Virus record (IMG/VR): IMGVR_UViG_2671180139_000002
Location: 39,803-103,802 of that record
Strand: one strand, 5' to 3'
Length of the DNA: 64,000 nt
Origin: a virus
Lineage: Duplodnaviria > Heunggongvirae > Uroviricota > Caudoviricetes
This document shows, in pieces, positions 601-60,633 of this stretch. Positions within the stretch are counted from its first letter, which is position 1, and every line of letters starts with the position of its first letter. The notes below the pieces were generated by a model. That model was given only the letters and a program-made list of their open reading frames with translations, was not told the DNA's origin and did no database searches. A program made the position numbers and the translations under genes.

Positions 601-1064
601 ATGCAGGTCCCTCGAGATTGATCTGGATCAATTATTGCGAAATGTTGCTGAAGATCAGGCGGCCGTGTCGAACCCGCTCGTCCCGTCGTAAGTCAGAAGC
701 CCCAGAACGGGCGTTCCGGGGCTTCCTCTGATAAACACGTTTTGACTTCACGACGCGGGGAGCAAACCTTTTGCTCTCCAGCGAATGAGCTGCCGAATTG
801 CGCCTGACGGGCTTTCTGACCTTCATTGCGAGTCCTCTTTACTCTGTCGTGCCTCCAGTAAAACTTCTGCGTCACATAGTAGTCAAAGCTACAGCGCGTG
901 ATCTCGGAACGCAAAAGGGAATAGATTATAGCAAAAGAATCCTATTCGGTGAATCTTATAGCTGCTCTAATGCGTTAGCGAAATAGCGACATCTATAGGA
1001 GTTTGGGCCAATGACAGCGGGCAGCTAGCTCGCGACGTCCCTCCTCTGACTCTCATGAGACGTA

Positions 1065-2338: not shown

Positions 2339-2632
2339 CTAGCGTTCGCCGTTCACCTCCTGGTCAAAGATGCGGGCCGTCTCCGCGTCGCGGGCGAAAA
2401 CGGTGCCGGCGAGCGCGTAGACATTGCTTTCACGCCCGAGACGTCCGAACAGCTCCTGGCACGTTTCGGCGATCGCGCGTTCCTGGGACGAAGCGGCGCG
2501 GAACCACCAGCGCCGATCGTTCTGCCCCCAACCGGTGCGGCGGAGATCGAGGTTGGTCTTCGGATACAAGAGAGTGTCTGCCACCATAGCGAAAGCGTCC
2601 TTGCGCGAATTAGCGATTAGAAGATGCCCCAC
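2339..2632 (-). CDS. hypothetical protein
   Basis: 97-aa ORF with a GTG start; a TTAGCGA element lies immediately upstream. Confidence 0.3.
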   Translation of the reverse strand: MGHLLIANSRKDAFAMVADTLLYPKTNLDLRRTGWGQNDRRWWFRAASSQERAIAETCQELFGRLGRESNVYALAGTVFARDAETARIFDQEVNGER

Positions 2633-3033
2633 GCCGCTGCGCGGGTGTCTTGAGCAGGCTGGAACGAAGACCCACCCTCCCCGGTTCGGTCCGCGATCTC
2701 GCTATTTCGCGAAATCGGGCCTTCGTCAACTGCCTTCCCACCCTCCGCCATGATGCCGAGGAGTTGCTGGACGTAGTTCGGCAGGATGCGTCGAGCGCGC
2801 GCAAGCTGCCGCGGCGTCATGTGATCCCTGTATCGGGGTAGCGCCTGGGCAACCGATGTCAGGAAGTCGGCGTCGGCCTTGTCCACGAACGTGGCGCCTC
2901 GGGCGCACAGTTGCCCGATGGCGCGAGCCACCGCCTTATCGCTGCGTTGCAGGAGATCGAGGATATCCTGCGCGGTCCAGACCTTGCTCTCGGTCATGTC
3001 AGTCGCTCTCGTGCGTTGCGTTGCATCGAACAT
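2617..3033 (-). CDS. hypothetical protein with C-terminal WGIF tail
   Basis: Ends ...AAAWGIF-COOH, the same C-terminal motif seen in five other small proteins of this window. Confidence 0.45.
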   Translation of the reverse strand: MFDATQRTRATDMTESKVWTAQDILDLLQRSDKAVARAIGQLCARGATFVDKADADFLTSVAQALPRYRDHMTPRQLARARRILPNYVQQLLGIMAEGGKAVDEGPISRNSEIADRTGEGGSSFQPAQDTRAAAWGIF

Positions 3034-7307: not shown

Positions 7308-7852
7308 ACGTGACGCCAGGTCCTTTCTTCACGAATGTCGCTGATGGTTCCGCGACTGACCCCGTGTTTCATAGCGAGATCGGTCACGGTTGCGTCCGAT
7401 TGGCGGATGGCGATGACGTCATCCGGGGTGAGCTTGGAGTTGCCGTTTGCAGTACCGCGGGTGGCTTTCAAACCGTGGGCGAAGGCGTGCTTCTCCTGGT
7501 CGCTGCGGCTCGCCCATTCCAGGTTACCGACGGAGTTGTCGGTCTTGTCGCCGCTCTTGTGGTTGACCTCGGGCAGGTTGTCCGGGTTCGGGATCAGGGC
7601 CAGACCGATCACCCGGTTCACCAGGACCGACTTGCTGATGCCGTCGAACGTCATGGTGAAGTACAGACGCTCCGTCTTGCGGTGGAGCGACGGCTTCACC
7701 CGGCGATAGACCCACTTCTTGCCTTCCATGAGGACGGTGCGGATCGCGCTCTTCGGTGCCGGCGCTCTGTACCAAACGGAGCCGTCTTCTCGGGCAACGT
7801 AGACCCGGTAGCGAAGCGCCCGGAGGATCCAGGCGTCCTTAGACCAAGTCAT
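7304..7852 (-). CDS. HNH homing endonuclease
   Basis: NHKSGDKTDNSVGNLEWASRSDQEKHAFAHG matches the HNH_3 pattern (NH.dGdKtNN...NLEw.t..eN..H); C-terminal HTH-like tail. Confidence 0.65.
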   Translation of the reverse strand: MTWSKDAWILRALRYRVYVAREDGSVWYRAPAPKSAIRTVLMEGKKWVYRRVKPSLHRKTERLYFTMTFDGISKSVLVNRVIGLALIPNPDNLPEVNHKSGDKTDNSVGNLEWASRSDQEKHAFAHGLKATRGTANGNSKLTPDDVIAIRQSDATVTDLAMKHGVSRGTISDIREERTWRHV

Positions 7853-8415
7853 GCGGCTCTCCCGAATTCACCGAAGGCGCGCTTCGCCGCGTGCTCGTAG
7901 GCGTCGCGCGCCTCAGCCGCTGTCGCGAAGCTGCCAAGAAATTTAGCTGTTCCCTTGATGGTGATTTGGGCGAGCCAACGACCGTTTCGTTCGCGAACTC
8001 CTTTAATGCCGCTGGTGTTGTTCGACGGCGCGTTCTTGTTTGCGGCGCTCTCGCCCCCGTCAGCGAGACGGAGATTCTCAAATCGGTTGTTCCTGGGGTT
8101 TGTGTCGATGTGATCGACAATTCGGTCGGGCCAAGTGCCGGTGACTAGAGCCCAGATGACGCGTTGTCCGAGAAGAGGAGCGCCGTCGACTGTCAGCTTG
8201 AGATATCCATCAGGGCGGAAGCCGCCAGCAAGCGCACCAGCCAAGCAGCCACGACCAGGCCGCGTGACGCGCCAGCGCAGTTCTCCCGTGCTGGGCTCAT
8301 AGCTGAGAACTTCGCGTAGGCGTTCAATCGTAGGCAGCGGACGAACCCTTTTAGGCCCAATCTGAGTGATGCCCTCCAGCAACTCAGATCTCCCGAGTTT
8401 TGGCGGAACCGACAC
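7849..8415 (-). CDS. HNH-AP2 homing endonuclease
   Basis: VDHIDTNPRNNRFENLRLA is the HNH_3 core; GIKGVRERNGRWLAQITIKGTAKFLGSFATAEEAARAYEHAA is AP2-like. Confidence 0.7.
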   Translation of the reverse strand: MSVPPKLGRSELLEGITQIGPKRVRPLPTIERLREVLSYEPSTGELRWRVTRPGRGCLAGALAGGFRPDGYLKLTVDGAPLLGQRVIWALVTGTWPDRIVDHIDTNPRNNRFENLRLADGGESAANKNAPSNNTSGIKGVRERNGRWLAQITIKGTAKFLGSFATAAEARDAYEHAAKRAFGEFGRAA

Positions 8416-19767: not shown

Positions 19768-20199
19768 TCAGAAAATTCCCCACAGTGGGTTGGAATGGTT
19801 GCGCCGCTTCAGTTCGGCGGCTTGCTGGGCAGCCTGCTGCGCGCGCTCTTCGGCAATTTCACGGGTGGTAGCGGCGAGCGCCTTGTGACCGTCGATGCCG
19901 ATTTTCCAGACGACGCTGCCGTCGCCAGTGTTGCAGAACTGGAGACCGTGAAAGACGCCGAACTCGTGGGTCACCTTCGGCACCACGGTCATCGGCGGAA
20001 CAAGCGTCAGTCTACCTTCGGCGCCCGGTCTCGCCACCTTGATGCTGTGGCGCTTCCGCTGAACACCGGTGCTACTGACACGGAGCGTGGTGACTAGCTC
20101 GAACGTCTTGCCGTTGACGCAGAAAACGTCATCCCCGATCCCGGCAAGTTCGACTTTTCGAGCGCAGAGCTCCATCAGTTCGCGGCAGATGATCATCAA
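19768..20199 (-). CDS. WGxF-tail family protein (paralog A)
   Basis: Ends NPLWGIF-COOH; VELAGIGDDVFCVNGKTFELV is paralogous to VPLYGVDGMKFRLRDATFELV in 20196..20789. Confidence 0.5.
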   Translation of the reverse strand: MMIICRELMELCARKVELAGIGDDVFCVNGKTFELVTTLRVSSTGVQRKRHSIKVARPGAEGRLTLVPPMTVVPKVTHEFGVFHGLQFCNTGDGSVVWKIGIDGHKALAATTREIAEERAQQAAQQAAELKRRNHSNPLWGIF

Positions 20200-20789
20200 A
20201 AAAGCCCCCAGTCCGGGTTCTCGGCCTGCCTGGCCTTGCGTTCCTTCTCCTCCCGGATCGCGATGCGCTTGCGTTGCACGCGGCCCTTGGCGAGTGCCTG
20301 ATCGAGAACGGATTGAGGAATGACGTCCCAGTGGCTCATGTGCTCGGCCGTGAATTGGACGAGGCCGCCGAGCTCCTCAAAGGTGATGGTGCCGACCTCG
20401 TCGCGCAGGTCGAAGATCGCCGGAACGTCGAGAACTTCGTAGTGGACTTGCGAACTCACCCTACGAGAGAGACGCCCCGTTGGCTTGCTTCGCGACTTGC
20501 CGCCGAACACCGCCCAGGTGTGCGTGGTAAAGACGTCTTCCAGCAGAAGACCCTGAAAGTGCGTTCCGTCAGGCAGCTCAGTTCCGAAGGCGGATGTTGG
20601 ACGAACGATCGCCACCGGCTTCGAGGCAAAACCACCCTTCTGCTCTAAGGCGGGGCGGATAGCACGCGCGTGCTTGCCATCCGGCACCAGCTCGAAGGTG
20701 GCATCTCGCAGACGAAACTTCATGCCGTCGACGCCGTAAAGCGGCACCGTCTTCCCGAGGATTGCGCGAAGCTCGTCGTGGAGCTGCAT
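20196..20789 (-). CDS. WGxF-tail family protein (paralog B)
   Basis: Ends NPDWGLF-COOH; the N-terminal domain is paralogous to 19768..20199. Confidence 0.5.
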   Translation of the reverse strand: MQLHDELRAILGKTVPLYGVDGMKFRLRDATFELVPDGKHARAIRPALEQKGGFASKPVAIVRPTSAFGTELPDGTHFQGLLLEDVFTTHTWAVFGGKSRSKPTGRLSRRVSSQVHYEVLDVPAIFDLRDEVGTITFEELGGLVQFTAEHMSHWDVIPQSVLDQALAKGRVQRKRIAIREEKERKARQAENPDWGLF

Positions 20790-21238
20790 CAGAACATGCC
20801 CCAGGATCGGTTCTGCTCGTACTTGCCGACTTCTTCGACCTGGTGAGCGTCTTCGCGGGCCTGCTTATGCTCCTTGAGGAACTTCGAGCGCGCCTTCGAC
20901 CAGCCGAGCTTCGCATCCTGGCCGAGGATCTCGATCAAGACATCCTCCAGGCCCTTGCAAACCTCGAACGCCTGCTTGTCGCCGAGCTCCATCTGCACAA
21001 AGCCCTGCGCGTCGAAGGGCTCGAACTCGATGATGTACTGGGCGCGCTTACCGGGACGAATACCCTTCAGAAGGAAGTCCTCGCCGCCGACGAACTTCTG
21101 GCTCTTGTAGGTGCCGCCTTCCTTCAGGATCGAGGCCGTGACCGGGCCGCTGAGGCTCGCGCCGAACTTGTCGCTGCGCTTTGCGAGCGCCTGATTGATC
21201 TCCTCGACGATCGGGTCGACGGTGGTGCTTGTCGTCAT
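20789..21238 (-). CDS. WGxF-tail family protein
   Basis: Ends NRSWGMF-COOH; a palindromic motif sits 10 nt upstream of its ATG. Confidence 0.5.
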   Translation of the reverse strand: MTTSTTVDPIVEEINQALAKRSDKFGASLSGPVTASILKEGGTYKSQKFVGGEDFLLKGIRPGKRAQYIIEFEPFDAQGFVQMELGDKQAFEVCKGLEDVLIEILGQDAKLGWSKARSKFLKEHKQAREDAHQVEEVGKYEQNRSWGMF

Positions 21239-33398: not shown

Positions 33399-36300
33399 TT
33401 AGGCGATGAGATCCGCGACCTTGGCGAAGACCTCGTTCAGGGCGAGCTGTTTGTCGCGATCGTGGTAGATTTCGCCAGGGTTGAAGCCGATGACGACGTT
33501 GGCGTCGAACTGCTCGCTGTAGACGATCTTGCCCGCCGCATCCGACGCCTTGCCCTTGAAGTCAGGGAAGAACTGGCGAACGACGGTGGAGCCGAGCAGG
33601 ACGATCACCGGAGGCTTCAGGAGATCCAGCTCGCGCTGCAGATAGGGCGCGTAGGTCGCGATCTCCTCGGGCGAGACCTGCTTGCCTTCCTTCGGCCGCT
33701 TGATCAGCGCGGTCCAATAGCCATCGGCACGGGCGAGACCCGCCTCCGACAGGGCTTCCGCCGTGTAGCCGAAGCTTTCTGCGAACGCCATGACGCCAAG
33801 ACGCTCCTCGCCGTTGGTGGGCGCGTCGGTGATCGCCACGAACTTCGCCTGTTTGCCGAAAGTGATCTTCACCGGCATCCCGTCGGTTTCCCCGGGCGAC
33901 GGCGCTGCTGGTCCATGCGCGCTCCGGTATTCTGCCATGAGCTCCGCGATCTTCACCTTGGTGGGTCTGTCCGTGTGCATGTCGCGGTGGACAGGCACGA
34001 CGGCGTCGATCAGCCCTGGAATGAACTCGATCTGATCCTTGATGCGGCTCGGGTCGCGAGCGGACAGAGAGCCTGGCACAATGCGCGCGAAGACGCCCAC
34101 CTTGTCCATCACCTCCATCTTGCCCTTATGGACCAGGCGCTTGTTCACGGCCGCGGTGAACTCCTCCAGCGACGCGAACTTGCCGCCGACGCTCTTGCGC
34201 GCCTCCACGATCGCCTTTGCTGCGTTTTCCGAGAGACCCTTGATGCGCGTGAAGGGGATGCAGAGCTTGGTGTCGGTCAGGATCTCGAACTGCTCGGTCG
34301 ACAAGTTGAGGTCCGGGAGCACGATTTCGATGCCGAGCCGCTCCGCGTCCTTCAGGAGACCGGGGAGCTTCTCCTCGTTCATCAGAGACAGCGCCGCAGC
34401 GAAGAACTCGACGGGGTAGTTCGTCTTCAGCCACATCGACTGATAGGAGATCAGCGTGTACTCGACCGAGTGGCTCTTGTTGAAGCCGTAGCCCGCGAAA
34501 GCGGAAATCTTCTCGAAAATGTCGCCCGCCTGGCTCTCTCCCAGCCCGTGCGTCGCCTTGCAGCCTTCGACGAACTTGTCCTTCTGCTTCGCCATCTCCT
34601 CGGGCAGCTTCTTGCCCATGATCTTGCGCAGCTTGTCGGCTTCAGCCATCGAGTAGCCGGCGAGATCGCGAGCCACCTGCATGACCTCTTCCTGGTAGAC
34701 CATGACGCCGTAGGTGTCCTTCAGCGCGTCGGTTATACTGGGATGGTCGAATTCGACCGTCTCCAGGCCCTGCTTGCGCAGGTAGTAGGAGTCCATCATC
34801 CCGGAATCCATCGGGCCCGGACGATAGAGTGCGGTCGCGGCCGTGATGTCGTCGAAGGTGATGGTGCCGTCCTTGCCGAGCTCACGCAGCAGGCGCCGCA
34901 TTCCGCCGGACTCGAACTGGAAAATGCCGGTCGTGATGCCCTTCGCGAAGTTGTCCAGCACCGCTTCGTCATCAAGCGGGATGCGCATGAGGTCGACCCG
35001 CTTGCCGTGACGCTCGCGGATGTATTTCAGGGTCAGATTGATGAGGTCCAGGGTGCTGAGACCCAGGATGTCCATCTTGACCAAGCCCTGATCCTCCACG
35101 ACGCGCTTGTCCCAGCAGACCACGCTTTCACCCTTGCGCCGCTCGATGACGGCGCGCTCCACCAGATCGCAGCCACCCACGACGATGCCGGCGGCGTGCT
35201 GACCAAGAGTGCGCGTGACACCCTCGACGCTGAGGCAGATGTCCCAGATCTCCGGGTTTCGATCCCGGAACTGGCCGATCTCGGCGACCTGATCGGCGGA
35301 ATCCTTCAGCTTCACGGACTGCCCGTGTTCCTTGGGTGCCAACTTGGAGCAGCGATAATCGTTCTCGCTGAGCCCGCAGACGCGCGAGACGTCGCGGATG
35401 GCCGCTGCCGGCCCAAGCGCGATGAAGTTGGCGACGCCGGCGACGCGCTTGCTGCCGTACTTCTCGACCAGGTATTCCACGACCTCATGCCGGCGCTCGG
35501 ACATGAAGTCGAGGTCGGCGTCGGGAAGGTCGATACGATCAGGGTTGATGAAGCGCTCGAACAGCAGACCGAAGCGGATCGGGTCGCAGTCGGTGATCCC
35601 CATCAGATAAGCCACGAGCGAGCCGCCGACGGAGCCGCGCCCTGGACCAACCAGAATGCCGTTGGATTTGGCGAACTGCACCACGTCCTGCACCAGCAGG
35701 AAGTAGCCGGAGAAGGAGAGCTTCTTGAGAACCTCCAGCTCGTAGGCGAGGCGGGGCCGATAGACGTCCCTCAGCTCCTCAGCCGTGGGTTTGTGGCCGA
35801 AGACCGACGAACCGAACCGCTTGGCCCAGCCCCCCTTGCACTCATTCACCACCGCCAGGAACTCGTTCGGCGCCATCGTGGGCAGTGAGACCGGCGCCTT
35901 GGCCCAGGAATAGGTCACCATGTCGGCAAGCCGGGCCGTGTTCTTGAGACCCTGGGTGAAGCAGGCGCCTGGGTCGGTCACGCCGCGGGCTTTCAGCCGG
36001 GTGATCGCGCCCTTGCACTCACCGGCGAGTTCCGACATCGAGAGCGGATGAAGATCGCGGGAGAAGGGTGAATTGTGCCAGCCGTCCGTGATCTTCACGT
36101 TGCGGGTGACCGCGTTCATGATCTCGGCCGCGTCGGCGCCCTCCTTCAGATAGGAGGCGGGGCGCGTGGTCAGAAACTCGCAGCCGAGCGCCTCCGCCGC
36201 GGCGATCGCGCGCTTGTTCAGCGTGTCCCAATACGGCGCGTTGATCGGCGTCAGCGTCAAGAACACGTTGCGAGCGCTCAGAGCGTCAACGCACTTGCGC

Positions 36301-36776
36301 AGTATGTCGAGCGCGTCAGCATGATGGAGCACGCTGTAAGCGTCGCTAGACGCGATTGCGACGTCATCCGACGTGACGTCTTCAAGCGCTGCGAACAAGT
36401 CAGCGAAGCTCAGCTTCGGGTTGTTGTAGAAGCGCTCCTCGGAGTTGGCGAGGGTGAGCAGCCGGAAGAGAGCGTGAAGCCCCTTCTCCGACAGCACGTA
36501 CCAGGTCAGATAGAACTCCGGCGGGGCCTTCTTGTCCTCCTTGGTCTTGCGCCAGGAGGGATCGTTGACCAGGCGCAGGCGGCAACCGATGATCGGCTTG
36601 ATTTCCGCCGCCTTGGCCTTGTTGGTGAAGTCGATCAGCCCGGTCACGGACATGGTGTCGGTGATCGCAACGGCCTTGGCACCCAGGGCCTTGGCACCGT
36701 CGACCAGCTTCTCGACCGTCAGAATGGATTCGCCGATCGAGAAATTCGTCCGCGCCGCCAGAATGGAATGCATCAT
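33399..36776 (-). CDS. dnaE: DnaE-type DNA polymerase III alpha subunit with C-terminal UDG-family-4-like domain
   Basis: N-terminal PHP domain; polymerase-core motifs (FERFINPDR, GYGFNKSHS); the C-terminal ~190 aa match family-4 uracil-DNA-glycosylase architecture. Confidence 0.85.
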   Translation of the reverse strand: MMHSILAARTNFSIGESILTVEKLVDGAKALGAKAVAITDTMSVTGLIDFTNKAKAAEIKPIIGCRLRLVNDPSWRKTKEDKKAPPEFYLTWYVLSEKGLHALFRLLTLANSEERFYNNPKLSFADLFAALEDVTSDDVAIASSDAYSVLHHADALDILRKCVDALSARNVFLTLTPINAPYWDTLNKRAIAAAEALGCEFLTTRPASYLKEGADAAEIMNAVTRNVKITDGWHNSPFSRDLHPLSMSELAGECKGAITRLKARGVTDPGACFTQGLKNTARLADMVTYSWAKAPVSLPTMAPNEFLAVVNECKGGWAKRFGSSVFGHKPTAEELRDVYRPRLAYELEVLKKLSFSGYFLLVQDVVQFAKSNGILVGPGRGSVGGSLVAYLMGITDCDPIRFGLLFERFINPDRIDLPDADLDFMSERRHEVVEYLVEKYGSKRVAGVANFIALGPAAAIRDVSRVCGLSENDYRCSKLAPKEHGQSVKLKDSADQVAEIGQFRDRNPEIWDICLSVEGVTRTLGQHAAGIVVGGCDLVERAVIERRKGESVVCWDKRVVEDQGLVKMDILGLSTLDLINLTLKYIRERHGKRVDLMRIPLDDEAVLDNFAKGITTGIFQFESGGMRRLLRELGKDGTITFDDITAATALYRPGPMDSGMMDSYYLRKQGLETVEFDHPSITDALKDTYGVMVYQEEVMQVARDLAGYSMAEADKLRKIMGKKLPEEMAKQKDKFVEGCKATHGLGESQAGDIFEKISAFAGYGFNKSHSVEYTLISYQSMWLKTNYPVEFFAAALSLMNEEKLPGLLKDAERLGIEIVLPDLNLSTEQFEILTDTKLCIPFTRIKGLSENAAKAIVEARKSVGGKFASLEEFTAAVNKRLVHKGKMEVMDKVGVFARIVPGSLSARDPSRIKDQIEFIPGLIDAVVPVHRDMHTDRPTKVKIAELMAEYRSAHGPAAPSPGETDGMPVKITFGKQAKFVAITDAPTNGEERLGVMAFAESFGYTAEALSEAGLARADGYWTALIKRPKEGKQVSPEEIATYAPYLQRELDLLKPPVIVLLGSTVVRQFFPDFKGKASDAAGKIVYSEQFDANVVIGFNPGEIYHDRDKQLALNEVFAKVADLIA

Positions 36777-41994: not shown

Positions 41995-42399
41995 TCAGGT
42001 CGTGGGCGAGCCGAAGACCGTTTCGAGCTTCTGCTCTAGGTCCGGCGTGAGCGACGGGTCCTGGTTATCCGTCAGCTCGCGGATCTTGGCGAGAACCTTG
42101 GACTCGTTCTTGGAGCAGATGGTGCCGAAGACGGTCCCGATCACATCGATGGACCAGCCATGCTGTTCCATTGCGAGACGGAAGAGAAAGGCGGGGTCGA
42201 CGTTCAGAGACTTCGCCAGCAGCGGAATCTTGTCCATCGGAACTCGAGCTTCGCCGCGCTTGATCATGGAGATCATGTTCGGCTTGTCATAGCCGACTTC
42301 GTCGGCGATCTGACGCTGGGTCTTCATACCCTGGATCGCGTCGATCTGCTTGCTCAGGTAGCTTGCAAGCCTAGTATGCTCGAACGGCCGTGCCGGCAT
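41995..42399 (-). CDS. XRE-family (Cro/CI-like) HTH transcriptional regulator
   Basis: MKTQRQIADEVGYDKPNMISMIKRGEARVP is a typical HTH_XRE; it diverges from the plus-strand membrane-protein island. Confidence 0.7.
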   Translation of the reverse strand: MPARPFEHTRLASYLSKQIDAIQGMKTQRQIADEVGYDKPNMISMIKRGEARVPMDKIPLLAKSLNVDPAFLFRLAMEQHGWSIDVIGTVFGTICSKNESKVLAKIRELTDNQDPSLTPDLEQKLETVFGSPTT

Positions 42400-44929: not shown

Positions 44930-46102
44930 GTGAACGGCATCGCTTTGCCTGAAAACGGGGAATTGATGCAGACCGTCCCATCGGGCGGCCGACGGCTCAC
45001 GCCTGCCGTTTTGGCCGGGAGAGAACTCGCGTTCGAGAAAGAGCGCACCGTCTCTCGTAAGGAATTGGCGCAAACCGCTCGTGAAGCTGAGAAAGCTCTC
45101 TCGCTGCGGCCCGGGCTGCGTCTGGTCCTCCATGAGCTTGTTGGCTCTTGGGGCGAACAGGACTTCGAGGGCAAGCTTCTGGTCTGGCCGTCGAATGATT
45201 ACCTGGTCGCGCGCACCGGCTTGTCGGAACGCACCGTGCGGTATGCGGTCAGCCAGCTTGTGGAGCTGCAGCTCGTCTCCTCGAAGGACTCCGCGAATGG
45301 GAAGCGCTTCGCTATTCGCGATCGCGCCGGCGAGATCGTGGACGCCTTCGGCTTCGACCTGACGCCTCTCTATGCGCGCCGGGGAGAGTTCACTGCCGAG
45401 ATCGAGCGCCAGAAGCTCGCGCGTGACGCCCAGGGGCGCTTGTTCGACCAGATTACGATCTGTCGCCGGGCGACGGAGGAAGCGCTCAGCGCGCTCGCGG
45501 AGCATTTCCCGGGTGTCGTCACTGCTGATCTGATCGAAGCGCTGGATGAGCTTCGCGAGCGTACTCCGCGACGTGGTTCCATGCGGCCAATCGAACGGCT
45601 TGTCGGTGAGTGGTTAGAGATCCGAAGGCTTGCCGAGAAGCGCTATTATGAGTCCGCCAATGGCGGCAATTCTTGCCGCCACAAAGAAACAAACAACGAC
45701 TCCCCTAGTGAGTCTTGTACAAAGGTCGATGAGGGAGTTGGTTCAGCGGAACGGCCCGTTTCCCTCACACTCGGCCTCGTATTGGATGCCTGCCCTGCCC
45801 TTTCGATGTATCCGCGGCCGATCCGCAGCGAAAATGACCTGATCGACGCTGGAAAGCATCTTCGATCCATGCTGAGCGCACATCCGAGCGCCTGGCGAGA
45901 GGCCGTTGAGGCGATCGGACCCGTGCGAGCTGCCGGCGCCGTTGCTCTCGTGCTCCAGCTCTATGAAGACGATCAGGCCGCGGGCACGAACCGGATCCGA
46001 AATCCTGGCGGCTACTTCCGAGCCATGGTGCGCATGGTCGCCGAGGGCCGGGTCGACCTGCAGACGGAGATCATCGCGCTTCGGAAACGTCGGCTCTGCT
46101 GA
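44930..46102 (+). CDS. repC: RepC-like plasmid replication initiator (repABC family)
   Basis: LLVWPSNDYLVARTGLSERTVRYAVSQLVELQLVSSKDSANGKRFAIRDRAGEIVDAFGFDLTPLYARRGEF...ICRR aligns closely with RepC proteins; an internal AT-rich stretch lies at ~45640-45730. The true start may be the second Met at 44966. Confidence 0.7.
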   Translation: MNGIALPENGELMQTVPSGGRRLTPAVLAGRELAFEKERTVSRKELAQTAREAEKALSLRPGLRLVLHELVGSWGEQDFEGKLLVWPSNDYLVARTGLSERTVRYAVSQLVELQLVSSKDSANGKRFAIRDRAGEIVDAFGFDLTPLYARRGEFTAEIERQKLARDAQGRLFDQITICRRATEEALSALAEHFPGVVTADLIEALDELRERTPRRGSMRPIERLVGEWLEIRRLAEKRYYESANGGNSCRHKETNNDSPSESCTKVDEGVGSAERPVSLTLGLVLDACPALSMYPRPIRSENDLIDAGKHLRSMLSAHPSAWREAVEAIGPVRAAGAVALVLQLYEDDQAAGTNRIRNPGGYFRAMVRMVAEGRVDLQTEIIALRKRRLC

Positions 46103-49594: not shown

Positions 49595-50289
49595 GCGGCT
49601 CTCCCGGCGGCCGCTCGGGCCCGCTCCAGGAGCGACATGCGCGCCTTGGGCTTCGGGGTCGACGTCGCCGCCGATGCAGCGGGCTCTGCGGACGTCGTCA
49701 TCGCCATGTTGATGGCGGCGGACATATCCCCGCTCTCGGCGGCAAGAACGGCGTCAGCGGGCTCCGGAGCGCGTTCCTTGACGCTCTCGGCCGGAGGCTT
49801 GCGACTGCGACGAGAAACGGGTGCCGTCTCCCGCTGCACATCCTCCAGTTCGACTGACGTTTTGCGGGTCGAGCGCTTGGACTGCTTGCCGCTCACCCAG
49901 GCGCCGGCGGCTTCGTTCGCTGCCAGGATCAGCTCGCGCTCCTTGGGTGTGACGGCATATTCGTCGAGGAGCTTGGGCGAGACCAGGACCGGCATGATCC
50001 GCTCGATGTGACGATCCTTCAGAGAGCCGACGCGCTTCTCGTCAGCATGATACGGATCGTCGGGCAGACGGCCAAAGTCCTGGATGATGTTGTTGATCGG
50101 GCATTTGCTGGCGCTCATGCACGCCTGGCAGCCCTTTCGCTGCTCGGGGCGCCGGCCCTTCCAGACCAGATCGCGCAAGGAGACGCAGGTGGCGAACCGG
50201 GTCTCCACGTTGAAGATCGGACAGACGAAGTGAAAGAGGTTCGCCGGCGACAGCGACTTGCGCCGCATGAGAGCGTATTGAATTCCCAT
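49591..50289 (-). CDS. Cys-rich hypothetical protein
   Basis: CPIF...C...C..C..C cluster in the N-terminal third; acidic/Ala-rich C-terminus. Confidence 0.4.
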   Translation of the reverse strand: MGIQYALMRRKSLSPANLFHFVCPIFNVETRFATCVSLRDLVWKGRRPEQRKGCQACMSASKCPINNIIQDFGRLPDDPYHADEKRVGSLKDRHIERIMPVLVSPKLLDEYAVTPKERELILAANEAAGAWVSGKQSKRSTRKTSVELEDVQRETAPVSRRSRKPPAESVKERAPEPADAVLAAESGDMSAAINMAMTTSAEPAASAATSTPKPKARMSLLERARAAAGRAA

Positions 50290-50585
50290 CAGAACATTCC
50301 CCAGGCTGAAGAGGTGACGACCTCAAGGGCGTCGGCGATCGCATCGAGCTCCGCGGCACTGGCGGCCGCGGCCTCAAGCTTCTCCACGCGGCGTTGGATC
50401 AGGTTGGCGATCTGCTGACCTGGCGCCTTCAGCGCGGTCACGATCTCGGTTTCGGCGGCGAGTTCGGCCATCCGCAGGCCGAAGGCGATCACGTCGCTTG
50501 TTGTCGGAATGAACTCGCCCGGAATGACCGAGCAGAAATCACTCAGCTCCAGTGTCGACGGCGCTATTCCCGCAATACCACCCAT
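50289..50585 (-). CDS. WGxF-tail family protein
   Basis: 98 aa ending SSAWGMF-COOH. Confidence 0.45.
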   Translation of the reverse strand: MGGIAGIAPSTLELSDFCSVIPGEFIPTTSDVIAFGLRMAELAAETEIVTALKAPGQQIANLIQRRVEKLEAAAASAAELDAIADALEVVTSSAWGMF

Positions 50586-51022
50586 CAGAACAGACCCCAG
50601 TCAGGGTTCGCAGCCACGCGATCGGCAACCGTGACTTCGGGCTCGGGCTCTGCTGCGAATGCGTCGTCACTGACCTTGCTGATGCCGCCCCCGAGCATGT
50701 CGACCAGGGTCTTGCCCATCACGGTCCACCAAGCGCCGAGCGCCCCCTTGAGCGCATCGAGATCGACAACCGTCGTATTGAGCTTCGTGAGCTCCCGCTC
50801 GTAGCCGCCGTTCTCCTTCTGCCGGAGCTTGCTGTTGTAGTTGCGCTCGGCGTCCAGGCTGTTCGCGTAACGATCAACCTTGGTCTGGCCCCATGCCTCG
50901 GCCTTGCCCCAGCGGTTCACGACCACCGAGGTGCCGTCGGCCGCGGTCAGTCTGAGCAGGTGATAGTCCTTCGTGCCCTGACGGTGTCTCAACGACACCC
51001 GGCTGACGATTACCGGAAACAT
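50585..51022 (-). CDS. WGxF-tail family protein
   Basis: Ends NPDWGLF-COOH (same heptapeptide as 20196..20789). Start placed at the internal ATG (MFPVIV...), which sits ~22 nt downstream of the motif copy; the track start is 51085. Confidence 0.45.
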   Translation of the reverse strand: MFPVIVSRVSLRHRQGTKDYHLLRLTAADGTSVVVNRWGKAEAWGQTKVDRYANSLDAERNYNSKLRQKENGGYERELTKLNTTVVDLDALKGALGAWWTVMGKTLVDMLGGGISKVSDDAFAAEPEPEVTVADRVAANPDWGLF

Positions 51023-51040
51023 CGCTTGCGTCTCTTGTGT

Positions 51041-51067
51041 GTCAGTGTGTGCTGACTTTCTTATAGC
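51041..51067. promoter_or_regulatory. motif instance GTCAGTGTGTGCTGACTTTCTTATAGC (gene-strand GCTATAAGAAAGTCAGC...)
   Basis: Upstream of the WGLF gene and downstream of the primase stop. Confidence 0.45.
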
Positions 51068-51081
51068 AGCGTGAACACGGA

Positions 51082-52197
51082 TCAACAGTCAAAACTGACT
51101 GATTGTTTTTGATCCGCGTAGTGATTGCGAAGACGCCACTTCACGTCGAGCGTGGCGCTGTAGACTGTCGCCTTGTAGAAGGCGTCCTGGACCACCTCGG
51201 GCAGGACCTCGTTCGGATCGCAGTTCGAGGGCAGCAGCGCGATACGCACCCGCAGTCCGATGCGGCGAAGCTGCTTGGCCGCGTCCAGGGCGGAGACGAG
51301 CGCACGCCATTCGCCGTCCCACATGATCGTGACCTCTTCCAGACCCGCACGCTTGAGCTGCAGGAAGCAGCCGAGCTGATCCTTGCCGTCGACCGAACCG
51401 AAGGATAGGTGCTTGCCGAAGGAACCGATCGGCACGACGTCGCGAAGGTCGATCTTCTCGTCGAAGGCTTTCTTGATCGCCATGACGTCAAAGGCGCCCT
51501 CACCCATCACGACGCGCTTTGCCCGCAAGGCATTCTGCCCGTTGAAGAGGAAGCGCCCGGTGCCAGGAAGCCCCTTGGGAAACAGGTACTTCTCGCTCTG
51601 ATCTCCGATCACATCACGGCCCTGAAACGTCACCAGCTTGCCGTCGAGATCGAACACCGGGATGATCAGGCGATTGACGAACTTCTGACCGCCTTGGGAG
51701 CCATCCTCCTTCAGGAAGTTCCACCATCCGTCCGTGCAAAAGCGGAGATGGAAGAATTTCGCCAGATCGCCGCTGATGCCGCGTTTCTCCAGATAAAGCA
51801 GGTTCTGCCCCTCACCCGTGGGTAGCGGGAACGAAACCGGCAGCTTCACCTCGCCAAACTCGACCGCAGCGGTCGTCGTTCGTTTGGGCTTCCAGCCCTG
51901 CTCCTTCAGAACCTCCCGGACGTGATTGAAGGTCTCCGCCCAGCTCAGGCCCAGGTTCGCGTTCACGAATTTGAGCTTGTTGAAGCCGGCGTTGCAGACG
52001 AAGCAATTGCCGAGCCCGGTCTCCGCGTTGAGATAGACCCGGTAACGACGATCGCCGCACTCCGGGCACTCGCGCATGTTGAGCTGCATACCGGAGGAGC
52101 CGCGCCCCTTTCGGTACGCCAGCCCCTCTCGCTCGCACCAATATTCCAGGTCGAGTTCGTCGGAGAGTTCCTGAGCGTCGCCGCCCCGCTCCGACAT
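51082..52197 (-). CDS. DNA primase (zinc-binding CHC2 plus TOPRIM)
   Basis: CPECGDRRYRVYLNAETGLGNCFVCNAGF is a CHC2 zinc ribbon; a TOPRIM-like acidic core follows. Confidence 0.8.
   Translation of the reverse strand: MSERGGDAQELSDELDLEYWCEREGLAYRKGRGSSGMQLNMRECPECGDRRYRVYLNAETGLGNCFVCNAGFNKLKFVNANLGLSWAETFNHVREVLKEQGWKPKRTTTAAVEFGEVKLPVSFPLPTGEGQNLLYLEKRGISGDLAKFFHLRFCTDGWWNFLKEDGSQGGQKFVNRLIIPVFDLDGKLVTFQGRDVIGDQSEKYLFPKGLPGTGRFLFNGQNALRAKRVVMGEGAFDVMAIKKAFDEKIDLRDVVPIGSFGKHLSFGSVDGKDQLGCFLQLKRAGLEEVTIMWDGEWRALVSALDAAKQLRRIGLRVRIALLPSNCDPNEVLPEVVQDAFYKATVYSATLDVKWRLRNHYADQKQSVSFDC
51086..51101. promoter_or_regulatory. palindrome CAGTCAAAACTGACTG embedded in the primase 3' coding end
   Basis: Encodes QSVSFDC; nested in the larger inverted repeat GGATCAACA...TGTTTTTGATCC. 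Confidence 0.4.
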
Positions 52198-52340
52198 CAG
52201 TTAACGCCCCAGTCGTCCGGGTTGCGGAGGAAATAGTCACCGCGGCGCCGGCGCAGATAGGCCCAGAGCAGAGTGCCGATCGCGCTGCCGCCGATGATGG
52301 CGGCGAGCAACGTTGCCATGAGAGCGTCGAGCATCGTCAT
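52197..52340 (-). CDS. micro-ORF: 47-aa single-TM peptide ending NPDDWGVN
   Basis: Not in the supplied track (under 60 aa). ATG overlaps the helicase stop (ATGA) and its TGA overlaps the primase ATG (TGATG); translation is MTMLDALMATLLAAIIGGSAIGTLLWAYLRRRRGDYFLRNPDDWGVN. Confidence 0.35.
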   Translation of the reverse strand: MTMLDALMATLLAAIIGGSAIGTLLWAYLRRRRGDYFLRNPDDWGVN

Positions 52341-55668: not shown

Positions 55669-56337
55669 TCACGGCCATCCCGTCGTCACGTCGATCGTGG
55701 CAAGCTTCTCCTGGGTTTCTGCCGCCGCAAGTTCGTCCTTCAGATTGCGGGCATACTGCCGAAGCAGCGCATACTGATTGCCGACAAAGGCGGCGAGCTG
55801 CAGGCCAGATTCCGGAGTCTCCAAAGGGATGCGGATGTTCTCCGTGGAGATCCACCCCTGGGCGTAACTGTCAGGCCACGGGAGTCCGCCGCCCGACGCG
55901 GCGAGCGCGGTGGTTCCCATGGCGGTCAGATCGGCTCGGCTGCTATCGTCAAGCGCAACGTGAAGACCGCCAGTAACCTGCACCCCTGCGCGAAGATACT
56001 GATCCAGAATTGATATGACCTGCGCTATCTTAGCGTTTCGCGCGTTCGCTACCAGGTCAACAACTCGTGGCACGGCTTCCCCACCATCCCATTCGTAGTT
56101 GCTCGCGTCAAAAACGATATTCTCCCAGTCCTCTTCGGTTACCTCGAACGCTTCCGCCGGGATCTTGGGGTTGCGGTGAAGTGAAGTGTCCTGCTTCGGT
56201 TCGCCGTTTTCATCCAGAACGGGTTTCCCATCCTCGTCGAGAACCGGCGTGGTCACCGCGACGAGCGGAAACGAGCTCTCCGGGTAGAACGCCGGATCGC
56301 CATCTTCATCGTTGATCGCCCAGATCTTCATGATCAA
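55669..56337 (-). CDS. hypothetical protein, possibly a tail-fibre assembly/chaperone protein
   Basis: Call rests on position only: directly downstream of, and overlapping, the tail-fibre gene; 222 aa, acidic. Confidence 0.3.
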   Translation of the reverse strand: MIMKIWAINDEDGDPAFYPESSFPLVAVTTPVLDEDGKPVLDENGEPKQDTSLHRNPKIPAEAFEVTEEDWENIVFDASNYEWDGGEAVPRVVDLVANARNAKIAQVISILDQYLRAGVQVTGGLHVALDDSSRADLTAMGTTALAASGGGLPWPDSYAQGWISTENIRIPLETPESGLQLAAFVGNQYALLRQYARNLKDELAAAETQEKLATIDVTTGWP

Positions 56338-59505: not shown

Positions 59506-60633
59506 TTAGGCGTAGCCCATCTGCTTACGCAGCATGTCCAGCACCTGAATTCCCCGGTACATATCCTCGAAGAACATGGTCTCGCCGGTCTCCGGAACGT
59601 GGATCGTCATCGGCGTCAGGAACGGCTGGTTGGCGCGGAAAGCTTCGCGCTTGGCATAGCCATCAATCGTCTTGTAGGCGCCGAGCTGGATGCCATGAAC
59701 GATGCGGCTGCGACCCATCCACTGCTTCTCGATCGAGGTGTGTCCGGCGACGTGGATGTGCCCGCCCCAGACGACATCCTCGCCCTGCCAGTTCTCCAGG
59801 ATCCACACGGTGATCGCGTGAACGGAGTTGAAGCGGGAGTTGCCGCGATACTTGTGCCGAGCGATGTGAGTGAAGGATTCCCCGTTCGGAGAGTTCATGC
59901 GCACGCGGACCTGGTCCGTGTCGTAGATCGGGCCGAGACCGTAATCGTCGAACATCTTCTTGAGGACGTCGACGCCGCCGGCGCTCGTGGTCCAATCCAT
60001 GTGATTGCCGGAGATCGCGGCGATCATCTTCGGAGCCAGGACGGAGATGTAGTGCTCAGCCAGGCGCCAGGCGTCGGAGTGGCTCATGATGTCCTTGCGA
60101 CGCTCGCGCTCCAGGAAGCCGACGATGAAGTTGTCGAGCCAATCGCCGATACCGACAGCGAAGAGATGCGGGTGCTGGTTGATCACATAGGCGTCGTCAA
60201 AGGCGCGACGCACCAGCGTGCCGATGTTGTTGAGGTGATGATCCGGAAGCCCCACGACGCCATACGGCCCGGGGAACTGCACGTTCAGGTCGATGCAGGA
60301 CTTCTGGTGATGGTGGGTGGCGAAGCGTTCGTTGCCGTCGATTACGCGCTTCAGGAGATCCTCAACCGGTTCCTCGTAAGGCTCCGGGAGTGTCTCGATC
60401 GTGCGGAACTTCTCGCCGATCGGCGCGACCGTGGCGGCCTTTGCCTTGCGGGAGATGAGAGCAGGAACCGCTTCGCCGCTTTCATGCAGCCGGCGGACCA
60501 TGACAGCATGGTTCCGGACCGTGCGCGGGGAGATGTCGAGAGCCGCGGCAACATCGCCGATGGTGGGATAGCGCGTCACGTCATTGTAGATCCGGGCGAA
60601 GTTCTCCCAGCGGGTCTCTTCCATAACTGTCAT
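59506..60633 (-). CDS. N-terminal HTH fused to a calcineurin-like metallophosphoesterase
   Basis: HTH TIGDVAAALDISPRTVRNHA; phosphoesterase motifs GDWLDN, GNHMDW, GGHIHVAGH. Confidence 0.55.
   Translation of the reverse strand: MTVMEETRWENFARIYNDVTRYPTIGDVAAALDISPRTVRNHAVMVRRLHESGEAVPALISRKAKAATVAPIGEKFRTIETLPEPYEEPVEDLLKRVIDGNERFATHHHQKSCIDLNVQFPGPYGVVGLPDHHLNNIGTLVRRAFDDAYVINQHPHLFAVGIGDWLDNFIVGFLERERRKDIMSHSDAWRLAEHYISVLAPKMIAAISGNHMDWTTSAGGVDVLKKMFDDYGLGPIYDTDQVRVRMNSPNGESFTHIARHKYRGNSRFNSVHAITVWILENWQGEDVVWGGHIHVAGHTSIEKQWMGRSRIVHGIQLGAYKTIDGYAKREAFRANQPFLTPMTIHVPETGETMFFEDMYRGIQVLDMLRKQMGYA

What the first reader, a model, noticed from the sequence alone, without database searches (positions are those of the whole stretch)
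19768..21238. Six small proteins share a C-terminal W-G-[ILM]-F tail: candidate beta-clamp-docking family
Six proteins end at the extreme C-terminus with [N][P/R/S]xWG[I/L/M]F. Three are consecutive genes (19768..20199 NPLWGIF; 20196..20789 NPDWGLF; 20789..21238 NRSWGMF), two are consecutive genes next to the primase (50289..50585 SSAWGMF; 50585..51022 NPDWGLF), and one is alone at 2617..3033 (AAAWGIF). Their bodies are largely unrelated; only the first two are clear paralogs. That pattern fits a shared docking peptide rather than a shared fold. Short C-terminal peptides ending in G-L-F are how bacterial clamp partners bind the beta clamp (DnaN): the consensus is QL[SD]LF and E. coli Pol II ends QLGLF. 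This phage encodes a DnaE-type pol III alpha, and no clamp (T4 gp45-like or DnaN) is visible in this window. One reading is that the replisome uses the host beta clamp and these proteins are phage factors recruited to it, or that compete for or inhibit it. I know of no described phage family defined by this tail.
Basis: partly seen in the sequence, partly recalled or inferred. Interest (0 to 1): 0.85.

Follow-up and report, generated by a model that had tools for sequence, protein, structure and literature searches.

The report
Shared C-terminal aromatic docking tail
Many unrelated small proteins of this phage-plasmid and its relatives, plus some resolvases of other mobile elements, end in the same ten-residue tail (Y-x-x-N-P-x-aromatic-G-x-F/W), which looks like an undescribed plug for one shared, still unidentified partner and does not match the usual beta-clamp-binding motif.

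Summary
All six WG[ILMV]F occurrences in window ORFs of 60 aa or more sit at the extreme C-terminus, against 0.003 expected. A seventh lies 6.5 kb outside the window.

The tail is a real peptide motif, consensus Y-x-x-[N/H]-P-x-[F/W/Y]-G-x-[F/W]-COOH. It usually follows an E/A/R/K-rich stretch. About 36 clusters with no BLAST similarity carry it.

It occurs in relatives of Rhizobium phages RHEph10 and B1VFA (7 and 8 proteins). It occurs at the same two gene positions in Salmonella SSU5 and in E. coli and Klebsiella plasmids. 140 of 150 diverse homologues of the window's WGR protein have it, as does one clade of serine resolvases.

Synonymous codons vary, and many tails precede no overlapping gene, so a Shine-Dalgarno or DNA-repeat explanation fails.

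The docking-peptide reading is supported. The beta-clamp assignment is not. The motif has no Gln, its position -1 varies (Arg is commonest), its Gly is invariant, and it is always terminal. The phage DnaE carries its own motif resembling a clamp-binding motif (QIEFI, residues 915-919).

The receptor is unidentified. It is probably a conserved host protein that acts on DNA. The closest chemical analogue is the eukaryotic-virus FGDF motif. I found no description of this motif.

The parts
20789..21238 (-). Tail protein T1 (149 aa), ending ...KYEQNRSWGMF. It is the orthologue of RHEph10 gp068 and B1VFA_154, and the positional counterpart of SSU5_076. It lies between SbcC and the RuvC-like resolvase.
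20196..20789 (-). Tail protein T2 (197 aa), ending ...AENPDWGLF. No Pfam or PHROG family.
19768..20199 (-). Tail protein T3 (142-143 aa), ending ...HSNPLWGIF. Its N-terminus is weakly similar to that of T2. Its stop codon overlaps the start of the RuvC-like gene.
50585..51022 (-). WGR-domain tail protein (145 aa as called; the ORF could start at 51085), ending ...AANPDWGLF. It lies directly downstream of the primase. 140 of 150 family representatives carry the tail.
50289..50585 (-). Tail protein T5 (98 aa), ending ...TSSAWGMF. It is the positional orthologue of RHEph10 gp035 (...ENFGRF).
2617..3033 (-). Tail protein T6 (126-138 aa, phrog_21015), ending ...RAAAWGIF. Its stop codon is TAA and it has no TGATG junction.
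52197..52340 (-). Small ORF (45-47 aa) between the DnaB-like helicase and the primase. It ends in a degenerate tail, ...RNPDDWGVN.
693..914 (-). Doubtful 73-aa ORF ending ...ERPFWGF. It may be a variant tail. Its coding signal is weak.
34020..34034 (-). QIEFI, residues 915-919 of the DnaE-UDG fusion polymerase (gene 33399-36776). This internal motif resembles a clamp-binding motif and is conserved as DQ[IAL]E[FL][ILM] in RHEph10, B1VFA and SSU5. It is context for the finding, not part of the tail family.

Best explanation
The tail is a portable C-terminal docking peptide. The motif is Y-x-x-[N/H]-P-x-[F/W/Y]-G-x-[F/W]-COOH, and it usually follows an E/A/R/K-rich, probably helical, stretch.

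It tethers otherwise unrelated proteins of mobile elements to one common receptor. Several of these proteins have a recognisable link to DNA:
- a WGR protein next to the primase and ligase;
- a protein between SbcCD and a RuvC-like resolvase;
- small serine resolvases.

Inferred binding mode: the two aromatic side chains, spaced i and i+3, insert into a hydrophobic groove. The invariant Gly allows the backbone geometry this needs. The free alpha-carboxylate is also read.

The receptor is not identified. I think it is most likely a conserved host protein that works on DNA at replication or recombination sites. Rough shares:
- beta sliding clamp through a non-canonical contact: about 0.25;
- another host hub: about 0.35;
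- a conserved phage-plasmid core protein: about 0.2.

Shown here: the motif, its portability, its selection at protein level, its distribution, and its mismatch to the canonical clamp motif. Inferred: that it docks at all, the geometry of binding, and the class of receptor.
For: 1. The position is far from chance: 6 of 6 occurrences are terminal against 0.003 expected.

2. The same motif is found in related elements.
- Seven RHEph10 proteins and eight B1VFA proteins carry it.
- It sits on the gene or genes downstream of the primase in most of 80 related viral contigs.
- In SSU5 it sits at the two orthologous positions as WATW.
- An E. coli plasmid orthologue ends ...LLENPIWGTW, and the family matches 759 enterobacterial plasmids.

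3. The consensus comes from 101 distinct tails. Gly is invariant at -2, an aromatic is always at -3, and F or W is always at 0 (both aromatics and the Gly were required by the search pattern). N is at -6 in 70%, P at -5 in 63% and Y at -9 in 50%.

4. About 36 clusters with no BLAST similarity carry the tail. The only Pfam domains found in carriers are WGR and Resolvase.

5. Selection acts on the protein.
- Gly, Pro, Phe and Arg codons vary synonymously.
- 140 of 150 WGR representatives, drawn from clusters at 50% identity, keep the tail while their bodies are 23-45% identical to the query.

6. The tail behaves as an add-on module. Resolvases at 41% identity or more to P0006 all have the linker plus tail. 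More distant resolvases end about 20 residues earlier, without it.

7. An AF2 model of such a resolvase shows a long terminal helix (213-239) followed by a non-helical ten-residue tip.

8. The tail occurs in elements that show none of the phage-plasmid replisome genes in the stretches examined: resolvase islands and a small prophage. In the genome scan, all real ORFs with the extended motif were from Alphaproteobacteria. This points to a host receptor.

9. There is a precedent in chemistry. In the FGDF motif both Phe and the Gly are essential, and the Gly positions the two Phe in a hydrophobic groove of the G3BP NTF2-like domain (PMC4450067).
Against: No binding was tested or modelled.

No receptor candidate was identified.
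- No clamp, PDZ, TPR or NTF2-like domain was found among the element's genes by Pfam or PHROGs.
- The conserved unknown protein next to DnaB (phrog_2500) gave only a poor, all-helical model.

The strict need for a free C-terminus would also suit a degradation tag.

In the resolvase model the last nine residues have pLDDT 86. The tip may therefore be a self-contained helix cap whose role is structural.

Residue choice at -1 tends to be shared within a genome: Arg in RHEph10, Ala in B1VFA, aliphatic here. That is not what a very conserved host pocket predicts. However, mixed flavours do occur within single genomes.
Confidence: 0.6

Rival explanations
1. The tails are beta-clamp (DnaN) binding motifs. 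They would recruit these proteins to the host sliding clamp, or let them compete for it.
For: - In this window the last four residues, W-G-[ILMV]-F, resemble L-G-L-F of the E. coli Pol II tail QLGLF (that sequence is from my own knowledge; window data).
- No clamp gene was detected in the element or in RHEph10, B1VFA or SSU5.
- The DnaE-type polymerase has a conserved internal motif resembling a clamp-binding motif, so the host clamp is probably at these forks.
- Among the carriers with a recognisable domain, the WGR protein and the resolvases act on DNA.
- A phage regulator that uses the host clamp through clamp-binding motifs is known: MuC of phage Mu (PMC12867686).
- Residues -1 and 0 compensate each other in size. 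Terminal W goes with a small residue at -1 in 30 of 32 cases. That fits two neighbouring residues sharing one pocket, as Leu4 and Phe5 do in clamp subsite I (from my own knowledge).
Against: - Across the 101 tails, Gln is not among the common residues at -4; N, L, A and D lead.
- Position -1, equivalent to Leu4, is R35, M19, A17, S9, L8, I5, T4. In MuC, changing that Leu to Ala abolishes clamp binding.
- Gly is invariant, whereas the clamp motif has S, D or any residue there.
- The motif is always at the extreme C-terminus, whereas clamp-binding motifs are often internal.
- The conserved upstream Y-x-x-N-P has no counterpart in the clamp motif.
- The polymerase's own motif, Q[IAL]E[FL][ILM], looks nothing like the tail.
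Confidence: 0.22
2. The receptor is a conserved core protein of the phage-plasmid itself, for example the DnaE-UDG polymerase, the gp32-like SSB, the DnaB-like helicase, the ligase or the CobS/CobT-like pair. In that case the tails assemble a phage-specific replication and recombination complex.
For: - The motif is overwhelmingly concentrated in the SSU5/RHEph10 supergroup. About three-quarters of the 40 viral-contig hits to the extended pattern carry a real tail, and most of those lie on contigs with homologues of the window's proteins.
- Tail genes sit inside the replication and recombination modules.
- Residue preference at -1 tends to be shared within a genome despite different codons, as if the tails follow a receptor that differs between phages of very similar hosts.
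- There is a precedent in T7, where the C-terminal Phe tails of the SSB and the helicase dock on the phage polymerase (from my own knowledge).
Against: - The tail also occurs on serine resolvases in genomic islands and on a protein of a small prophage. None of the phage-plasmid replication genes lie in the 8-20 kb stretches examined there.
- The only family shared between those loci and the phage-plasmids, apart from tail-structure genes, is an ordinary HTH_3 regulator.
- Different flavours of the tail coexist within one genome.
Confidence: 0.18
3. The tail is a C-terminal degradation tag, or a handle for a protease or unfoldase. It would limit the lifetime of early phage proteins and recombinases.
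For: - The tail strictly needs the free C-terminus.
- Its carriers are proteins of mobile elements, including recombinases. From my own knowledge, the activity of such proteins is often limited by proteolysis.
- RHEph10 encodes an HslV-family peptidase, and the group encodes a MoxR-type AAA+ ATPase paired with a VWA protein.
Against: - From my own knowledge, known bacterial C-terminal degrons such as the ssrA-type LAA are small and non-polar. They are not a ten-residue aromatic motif with an invariant Gly.
- The E/A/R/K-rich stretch before the tail looks like a tether.
- No HslV-type peptidase is annotated in SSU5.
- One extra Gly or Ala after the last aromatic is tolerated.
Confidence: 0.1
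4. The tail is a by-product of signals at the nucleotide level. TGGGG would act as a Shine-Dalgarno-like element, with a TGATG stop/start overlap for translational coupling to the next gene. Alternatively it is a repeated DNA cassette.
For: Five of the six window tails, and also the NPDDWGVN variant, end in TGGGGN-NNN-NNN-TGATG, with the next gene's ATG overlapping the stop codon.
Against: - The sixth tail has a TAA stop and no overlap.
- In RHEph10 and B1VFA about half of the tails are followed by a gap or by no coupled gene.
- The common F-type tails (TTY GGN) contain no TGGGG.
- All four Gly codons, three Pro codons, both Phe codons and four Arg codons are used.
- Many other coupled genes in the window end in unrelated residues.
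Confidence: 0.02

Closest known systems
Bacterial beta-clamp-binding motif (QL[SD]LF, or Q-x-x-hydrophobic-x-hydrophobic). Phage use is known, for example MuC and Mor of phage Mu.
   Same: It is a short peptide shared by many otherwise unrelated DNA enzymes, and it plugs hydrophobic residues into one hub. It often ends in Phe and can be C-terminal. Phage proteins are known to exploit it (PMC12867686).
   Different: The tail has no Gln. The Leu4-equivalent position is variable, with Arg commonest. Gly is invariant. An aromatic replaces Leu2. A conserved Y-x-x-N-P lies upstream. The tail is strictly C-terminal. The phage polymerase's own motif is of the canonical type and is unlike the tail.
FGDF / FGxF motif of eukaryotic viral and cellular proteins (alphavirus nsP3, HSV ICP8, USP10), which binds the NTF2-like domain of G3BP.
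   Same: The core chemistry is the same: aromatic-G-x-aromatic. Both aromatics and the Gly are essential and the third position is free. Several unrelated viral proteins carry it to reach one host hub (PMC4450067).
   Different: That system is eukaryotic. The motif there is internal and often duplicated, and its receptor is known. Here the motif is terminal and extended by Y-x-x-N-P. No NTF2-like protein was detected among the element's genes.
C-terminal tips of single-strand DNA-binding proteins (bacterial SSB ...DDDIPF; T7 gp2.5 ...DGDF and T7 gp4 ...DF).
   Same: A C-terminal Phe with a free carboxylate sits at the end of a flexible segment and docks into partner pockets at the replication fork (from my own knowledge).
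   Different: There, one hub protein carries the tip and many partners each have a pocket. Here many clients carry the tip. The acidic run and the Pro at -1 are absent. The phage's own gp32-like SSB ends ...SILSELEGL.
T4/RB69 clamp-binding C-terminal tails (gp43, gp33, gp55) and PIP boxes.
   Same: Several phage proteins share a hydrophobic or aromatic C-terminal tail that binds one ring-shaped hub (from my own knowledge).
   Different: Those tails need a phage gp45-type clamp and its loader. Neither was detected here or in RHEph10, B1VFA or SSU5.

Membership tests
Bacterial beta-clamp-binding motif (QL[SD]LF) | Gln at motif position 1 (here position -4) | tested here: not met
   At -4 the 101 tails have N29, L21, A8, D8, K5, T5, R5. 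Gln is not among the common residues. The window tails have L, D, S, A, D, A there.
Bacterial beta-clamp-binding motif (QL[SD]LF) | Aliphatic Leu or Met at motif position 4 (here -1). This residue is critical for binding. | tested here: not met
   It is met in this element alone: all 7 tails have I, L, M or V. Across the family it is not met. The 101 tails have R35, M19, A17, S9, L8, I5, T4. The WGR representatives have M33, S23, L21, R20, A17. Changing this Leu to Ala abolishes MuC-clamp binding.
Bacterial beta-clamp-binding motif (QL[SD]LF) | Phe (or Leu) as the last motif residue | tested here: met
   F in 92 and W in 9 of 101 tails. Note that the search pattern itself required F or W at this position.
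Bacterial beta-clamp-binding motif (QL[SD]LF) | Physical binding in the hydrophobic cleft of DnaN | not testable with these tools
   Complex prediction was not possible.
FGDF/FGxF ligands of NTF2-like domains | Two aromatic residues and a Gly in the pattern aromatic-G-x-aromatic, with a free third position | tested here: met
   The search pattern fixed the Gly and both aromatics. What the data add is that -1 varies widely and that 140 of 150 unselected WGR-family homologues end in this pattern. The motif definition is from PMC4450067.
FGDF/FGxF ligands of NTF2-like domains | A receptor with an NTF2-like domain | tested here: inconclusive
   No NTF2-like or SnoaL-like Pfam family is recorded for any called gene in about 52 kb of the element or found in my own scans. 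Host proteins were not examined.
SSB-type C-terminal tips (DDDIPF) | An acidic run followed by I-P-F-COOH | tested here: not met
   The terminal Phe is present, but -1 is never Pro among the common residues. The preceding positions are N-P-x-aromatic-G, not D-D-D.
T4-type clamp-binding tails / PIP box | A phage-encoded gp45/PCNA-type clamp and loader in the same genome | tested here: not met
   No clamp or clamp-loader family was found by Pfam or PHROGs, and none is annotated in the relatives. The 232-aa unknown protein next to DnaB is predicted to be all-helical, at low confidence.
ssrA-like C-terminal degrons | Small non-polar last residues (such as LAA-COOH) recognised by ClpX | tested here: not met
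   The last residues are aromatic-G-x-F/W. Proteolysis itself was not testable.

The most novel reading that the evidence does not exclude
The tail defines a previously unrecognised hub-and-client system in Proteobacteria. In this reading, a single conserved host protein has a pocket that reads Y-x-x-N-P-x-aromatic-G-x-aromatic-COOH. Several classes of mobile element exploit that pocket independently:
- SSU5/RHEph10-type phage-plasmids, including relatives of Y. pestis pMT1;
- small prophages;
- island-borne serine resolvases.
They would use it to place their DNA-processing proteins at replication or recombination sites. The pocket could be a new site on the beta clamp or on another replisome or repair protein.
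Probability: 0.35. Interest if true: 0.85.

Novelty: new variant of a known kind. Interest (0 to 1): 0.7.

Why it matters
- **A handle on unknown genes.** Short docking peptides shared by many clients are how replisome hubs (clamps, SSB) organise traffic. A new motif of this kind gives a first experimental handle on dozens of phage genes of unknown function.
- **An easy route to the receptor.** A 12-residue peptide could be used to fish out the receptor. The receptor could turn out to be an unknown pocket on a conserved host protein.
- **Relevance to clinical plasmids.** The motif marks a large group of phage-plasmids, with matches in 759 enterobacterial plasmids from Klebsiella, E. coli, Salmonella and Yersinia. 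Understanding their replication machinery has practical value.
- **Use in annotation.** The motif can be used directly as a search rule: a C-terminal regular expression picks out client proteins.

Tried and rejected
1. Shine-Dalgarno, coupling or DNA-cassette artefact. Rejected on comparative and codon evidence.

2. A hidden phage clamp.
- The 375-aa ORF at 59506-60633 is a DNA-repair exonuclease family member.
- The 232-aa phrog_2500 protein next to DnaB has only 5 homologues found.
- Its AF2 model is poor (pLDDT 53.8) and all-helical, so it does not look like a clamp.
- PDB sequence searches with three conserved unknown proteins found nothing.

3. Modelling a hub-tail chimera with AF2.

4. 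A host protein that carries the same tail.
- The genome scan gave mostly chance hits in short ORFs.
- The one housekeeping hit, GlyQ of Thalassovita mangrovi, is unique. None of the 120 closest GlyQ proteins has the tail.

5. A receptor gene shared by the phage-plasmids and the resolvase islands. The only shared non-structural family is an HTH_3 regulator, judged an ordinary mobile-element repressor.

6. Domain searches of about 40 tail-bearing proteins. Only WGR and Resolvase were found.

7. Literature. No paper on this motif was found. That covered papers mentioning RHEph10, papers combining SSU5 with phage-plasmids, and papers combining WGR domains with phage primases.

8. Residue covariation as a guide to the receptor. 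The signal within the motif is strong but not corrected for phylogeny. Mixed flavours within genomes make it unusable for picking a receptor.
Full report
**What the window is**

The window is part of a roughly 109 kb element from Faunimonas pinastri, order Rhizobiales. In a second assembly the contig ends fall at different positions on the element, which fits a circular molecule.

The genes seen in the window are these.
- A RepC-type plasmid replication protein.
- A DnaE-type polymerase fused to a UDG-like domain.
- A DnaB-like helicase, a primase, an ATP-dependent ligase and a gp32-like SSB.
- A RecA-like protein, a 5'-3' exonuclease, SbcC and a RuvC-like resolvase.
- Ribonucleotide reductase, rIIA and rIIB, a CobS/CobT-like pair, PhoH and a sigma factor.

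By DnaE identity the closest relatives are Rhizobium phages B1VFA, V1VFA-S, RHph_X66 and RHEph10, at about 60%. Pseudomonas phage nickie (43%) and Salmonella phage SSU5 (37%) are more distant. The element is therefore a phage-plasmid of the SSU5/RHEph10 supergroup.

**Checking the observation**

Over six frames, WG[ILMV]F occurs exactly six times in ORFs of 60 aa or more, each time as the last four residues.

From composition, 0.41 occurrences are expected anywhere and 0.003 at a C-terminus. In 200 shuffles the mean number of terminal occurrences was 0.010.

Further points:
- A seventh tail (...NKEWGVF) lies 6.5 kb to the left of the window.
- Two degenerate variants exist, at 52197-52340 (NPDDWGVN) and 693-914 (FWGF).
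- The first two proteins are at best distant paralogues.

**Is it a nucleotide-level artefact?**

Five of the six tails read TGG GGN NTN TTY TGA TG, so the stop codon overlaps the next start and a G-run sits 7 nt upstream. I took seriously the idea that the peptide is a by-product of a coupling signal. The idea fails for four reasons.
- The sixth tail has TAA and no overlap.
- About half of the tails in RHEph10 and B1VFA are not followed by an overlapping gene.
- The commonest tails elsewhere are F-G-x-F (TTY GGN), which have no G-run.
- Gly, Pro, Phe and Arg codons vary synonymously while the amino acids are kept.

**The motif and its spread**

The counts in the complete genomes, the related contigs and the enterobacterial relatives are these.
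- RHEph10 has seven proteins ending NPx[FY]G[RM]F. B1VFA has eight ending [NH]Px[FY]GxF.
- In most of 80 related viral contigs, the gene or genes just downstream of the primase end in the motif. Variants include WGSW, WGTW, FGRF, YGRF, FGAF and WGIWG.
- SSU5 keeps it as ...GWATW and ...PTWATW at the same two gene positions, after the primase and before the RuvC-like gene.
- An E. coli plasmid orthologue ends ...LLENPIWGTW and a Klebsiella one ends ...MECPVWATW.
- That protein family matches 759 enterobacterial plasmids, including Yersinia pestis plasmid NC_004838.1.

From 101 distinct tails the consensus is as follows.

| Position | Residues |
|---|---|
| -9 | Y (50%) |
| -8 | A or E |
| -6 | N (70%) or H (13%) |
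| -5 | P (63%), else E or D |
| -3 | F55, W27, Y19 |
| -2 | G in 101 of 101 |
| -1 | variable: R35, M19, A17, S9, L8, I5, T4 |
| 0 | F92, W9 |

The search pattern itself required the Gly and both aromatics, so those three rows are not independent evidence. One extra Gly or Ala after the last aromatic is sometimes tolerated. The 20 or so residues before the motif are rich in E, A, R and K.

About 36 clusters with no BLAST similarity carry the tail. Apart from WGR and Resolvase, no Pfam domain was found in about 40 carriers.

An exhaustive HMMER search with the window's WGR protein gave 150 representatives of clusters at 50% identity. 140 of them end in the motif, although their bodies are only 23-45% identical to the query.

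**Carriers outside the phage-plasmids**

A scan of one genome per species, about 185,000 species, used the extended pattern. It found real ORFs only in Alphaproteobacteria. The real hits were these.
- Two phage-plasmids.
- A protein of a small integrase-bearing prophage.
- Three small serine recombinases.
- One GlyQ.

Among homologues of one of these resolvases, all those at 41% identity or more carry a charged linker plus the tail. More distant homologues end about 20 residues earlier. The tail is therefore an add-on module.

These resolvases sit in genomic islands and show no phage-plasmid replication genes nearby. The GlyQ case is unique, since none of 120 close homologues has the tail. I treat it as a curiosity.

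**What it most likely does**

The combination of features is what a docking peptide looks like:
- a portable peptide on unrelated bodies;
- a charged stretch in front of it;
- a strict need for the free C-terminus;
- two aromatics at i and i+3 with an invariant Gly between them;
- strong purifying selection.

An AF2 model of a tailed resolvase shows a long final helix (213-239) and then a ten-residue non-helical tip.

The best chemical precedent is the FGDF motif of alphavirus nsP3, HSV ICP8 and USP10. There both Phe and the Gly are essential, and the Gly lets both Phe enter a hydrophobic groove of the G3BP NTF2-like domain (PMC4450067).

Within the motif, a terminal W goes with a small residue at -1 (30 of 32 cases). 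R or K at -1 goes with F or Y at -3. This suggests a pocket, or a packed tip, of fixed size. That analysis is not corrected for phylogeny.

**Is the receptor the beta clamp?**

The logic is attractive.
- No clamp gene is present.
- The polymerase is of DnaE type.
- DnaE has a conserved DQ[IAL]E[FL][ILM] immediately after its helix-hairpin-helix domain. In this window it is at residues 915-919.
- From my own knowledge, E. coli alpha has its internal clamp-binding motif QADMF at residues 920-924.

That motif is canonical in type and quite unlike the tail.

The tail fails two of the three sequence features that define the clamp motif: Gln at position 1 and an aliphatic residue at position 4. In MuC, changing that Leu to Ala abolishes clamp binding. 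I put canonical or non-canonical clamp binding at about 0.2-0.25.

**Host receptor or phage receptor?**

For a host receptor:
- the tail occurs on resolvases and on a prophage protein that lack the phage-plasmid core genes nearby;
- the same motif is used in hosts from both Alpha- and Gammaproteobacteria.

For a phage receptor:
- the motif is heavily concentrated in this supergroup;
- the residue at -1 tends to be shared within a genome and is held by selection.

Mixed flavours within genomes weaken the second phage argument.

A degradation-tag role and a purely structural helix-cap role remain minor alternatives.

**Novelty**

I found no description of this motif in the searchable literature. 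The principle of a shared docking peptide is well known. The motif, its client set and its unknown receptor appear to be new.

Noticed in passing
window 34020-34034 (-), DnaE residues 915-919: The DnaE-UDG fusion polymerase has a conserved DQ[IAL]E[FL][ILM] just after its helix-hairpin-helix domain. It is QIEFI here, QLELL in RHEph10, QIELL in B1VFA and QAELM in SSU5. The position matches that of the internal clamp-binding motif of E. coli alpha. This suggests these phage-plasmids use the host beta clamp for processivity.
   Followed up: partly
L161:5200-6261 (-), Thalassovita mangrovi chromosome: The glycyl-tRNA synthetase alpha subunit of this one species has a 27-residue C-terminal extension ending ...AKAYADNPDFGKF, a perfect copy of the tail. 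None of the 120 closest GlyQ proteins has it. A 435-bp gap follows before glyS. It may be a chance match or a fusion left by a mobile element.
   Followed up: partly
L147:2119-2865 (-), L152:949-1707 (-), L197:6973-7995 (+); proteins P0006-P0013: One clade of small serine recombinases, in genomic islands of Microvirga, Bosea, Mesorhizobium and Rhodobacterales, has gained a charged linker plus the same tail. Variants include H at -3 and one extra Ala. Their more distant relatives lack the extension.
   Followed up: yes
window 19768-21238, 50289-51085, 52197-52340: Five of the six tail genes, and the NPDDWGVN variant, end in TGGGGN NNN NNN TGATG. The Trp-Gly codons therefore also place a G-run about 7 nt before the overlapping start of the next gene. 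This is a possible secondary use in translational coupling. It is not general in the relatives.
   Followed up: yes
window 44930-46102 (+) and 41995-42399 (-): A RepC-type replication protein and an HTH_3 regulator sit together in a region transcribed in the opposite direction, which marks the element as a phage-plasmid. Homologues of the regulator also occur in the resolvase-bearing islands (L197, L207).
   Followed up: partly
window 56334-59102 (-): A 922-aa ORF with no Pfam family was missed by my GC3-based gene call but is called in the public assembly. It lies between a DUF4376 protein and a 110-aa ORF, near the tail and lysis genes.
   Followed up: no
L130:16785-17351 (about window 7849-8415, -): An HNH_3 endonuclease gene is inserted among small early genes next to the DnaQ-like exonuclease. 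It is probably a homing endonuclease.
   Followed up: no
L130:1823-2095 (-), left of the window: The gene next to the seventh tail protein ends ...DEDPEMHFGMR. This looks like a tail that has lost its final aromatic residue.
   Followed up: no
WGR family representatives P0161-P0310: The tails fall into three flavours: W-G-aliphatic-F, W-G-small-W and F/Y-G-R-F. Positions -3, -1 and 0 are strongly associated (chi-square p from 1e-4 to 1e-13). The test is not corrected for phylogeny.
   Followed up: partly
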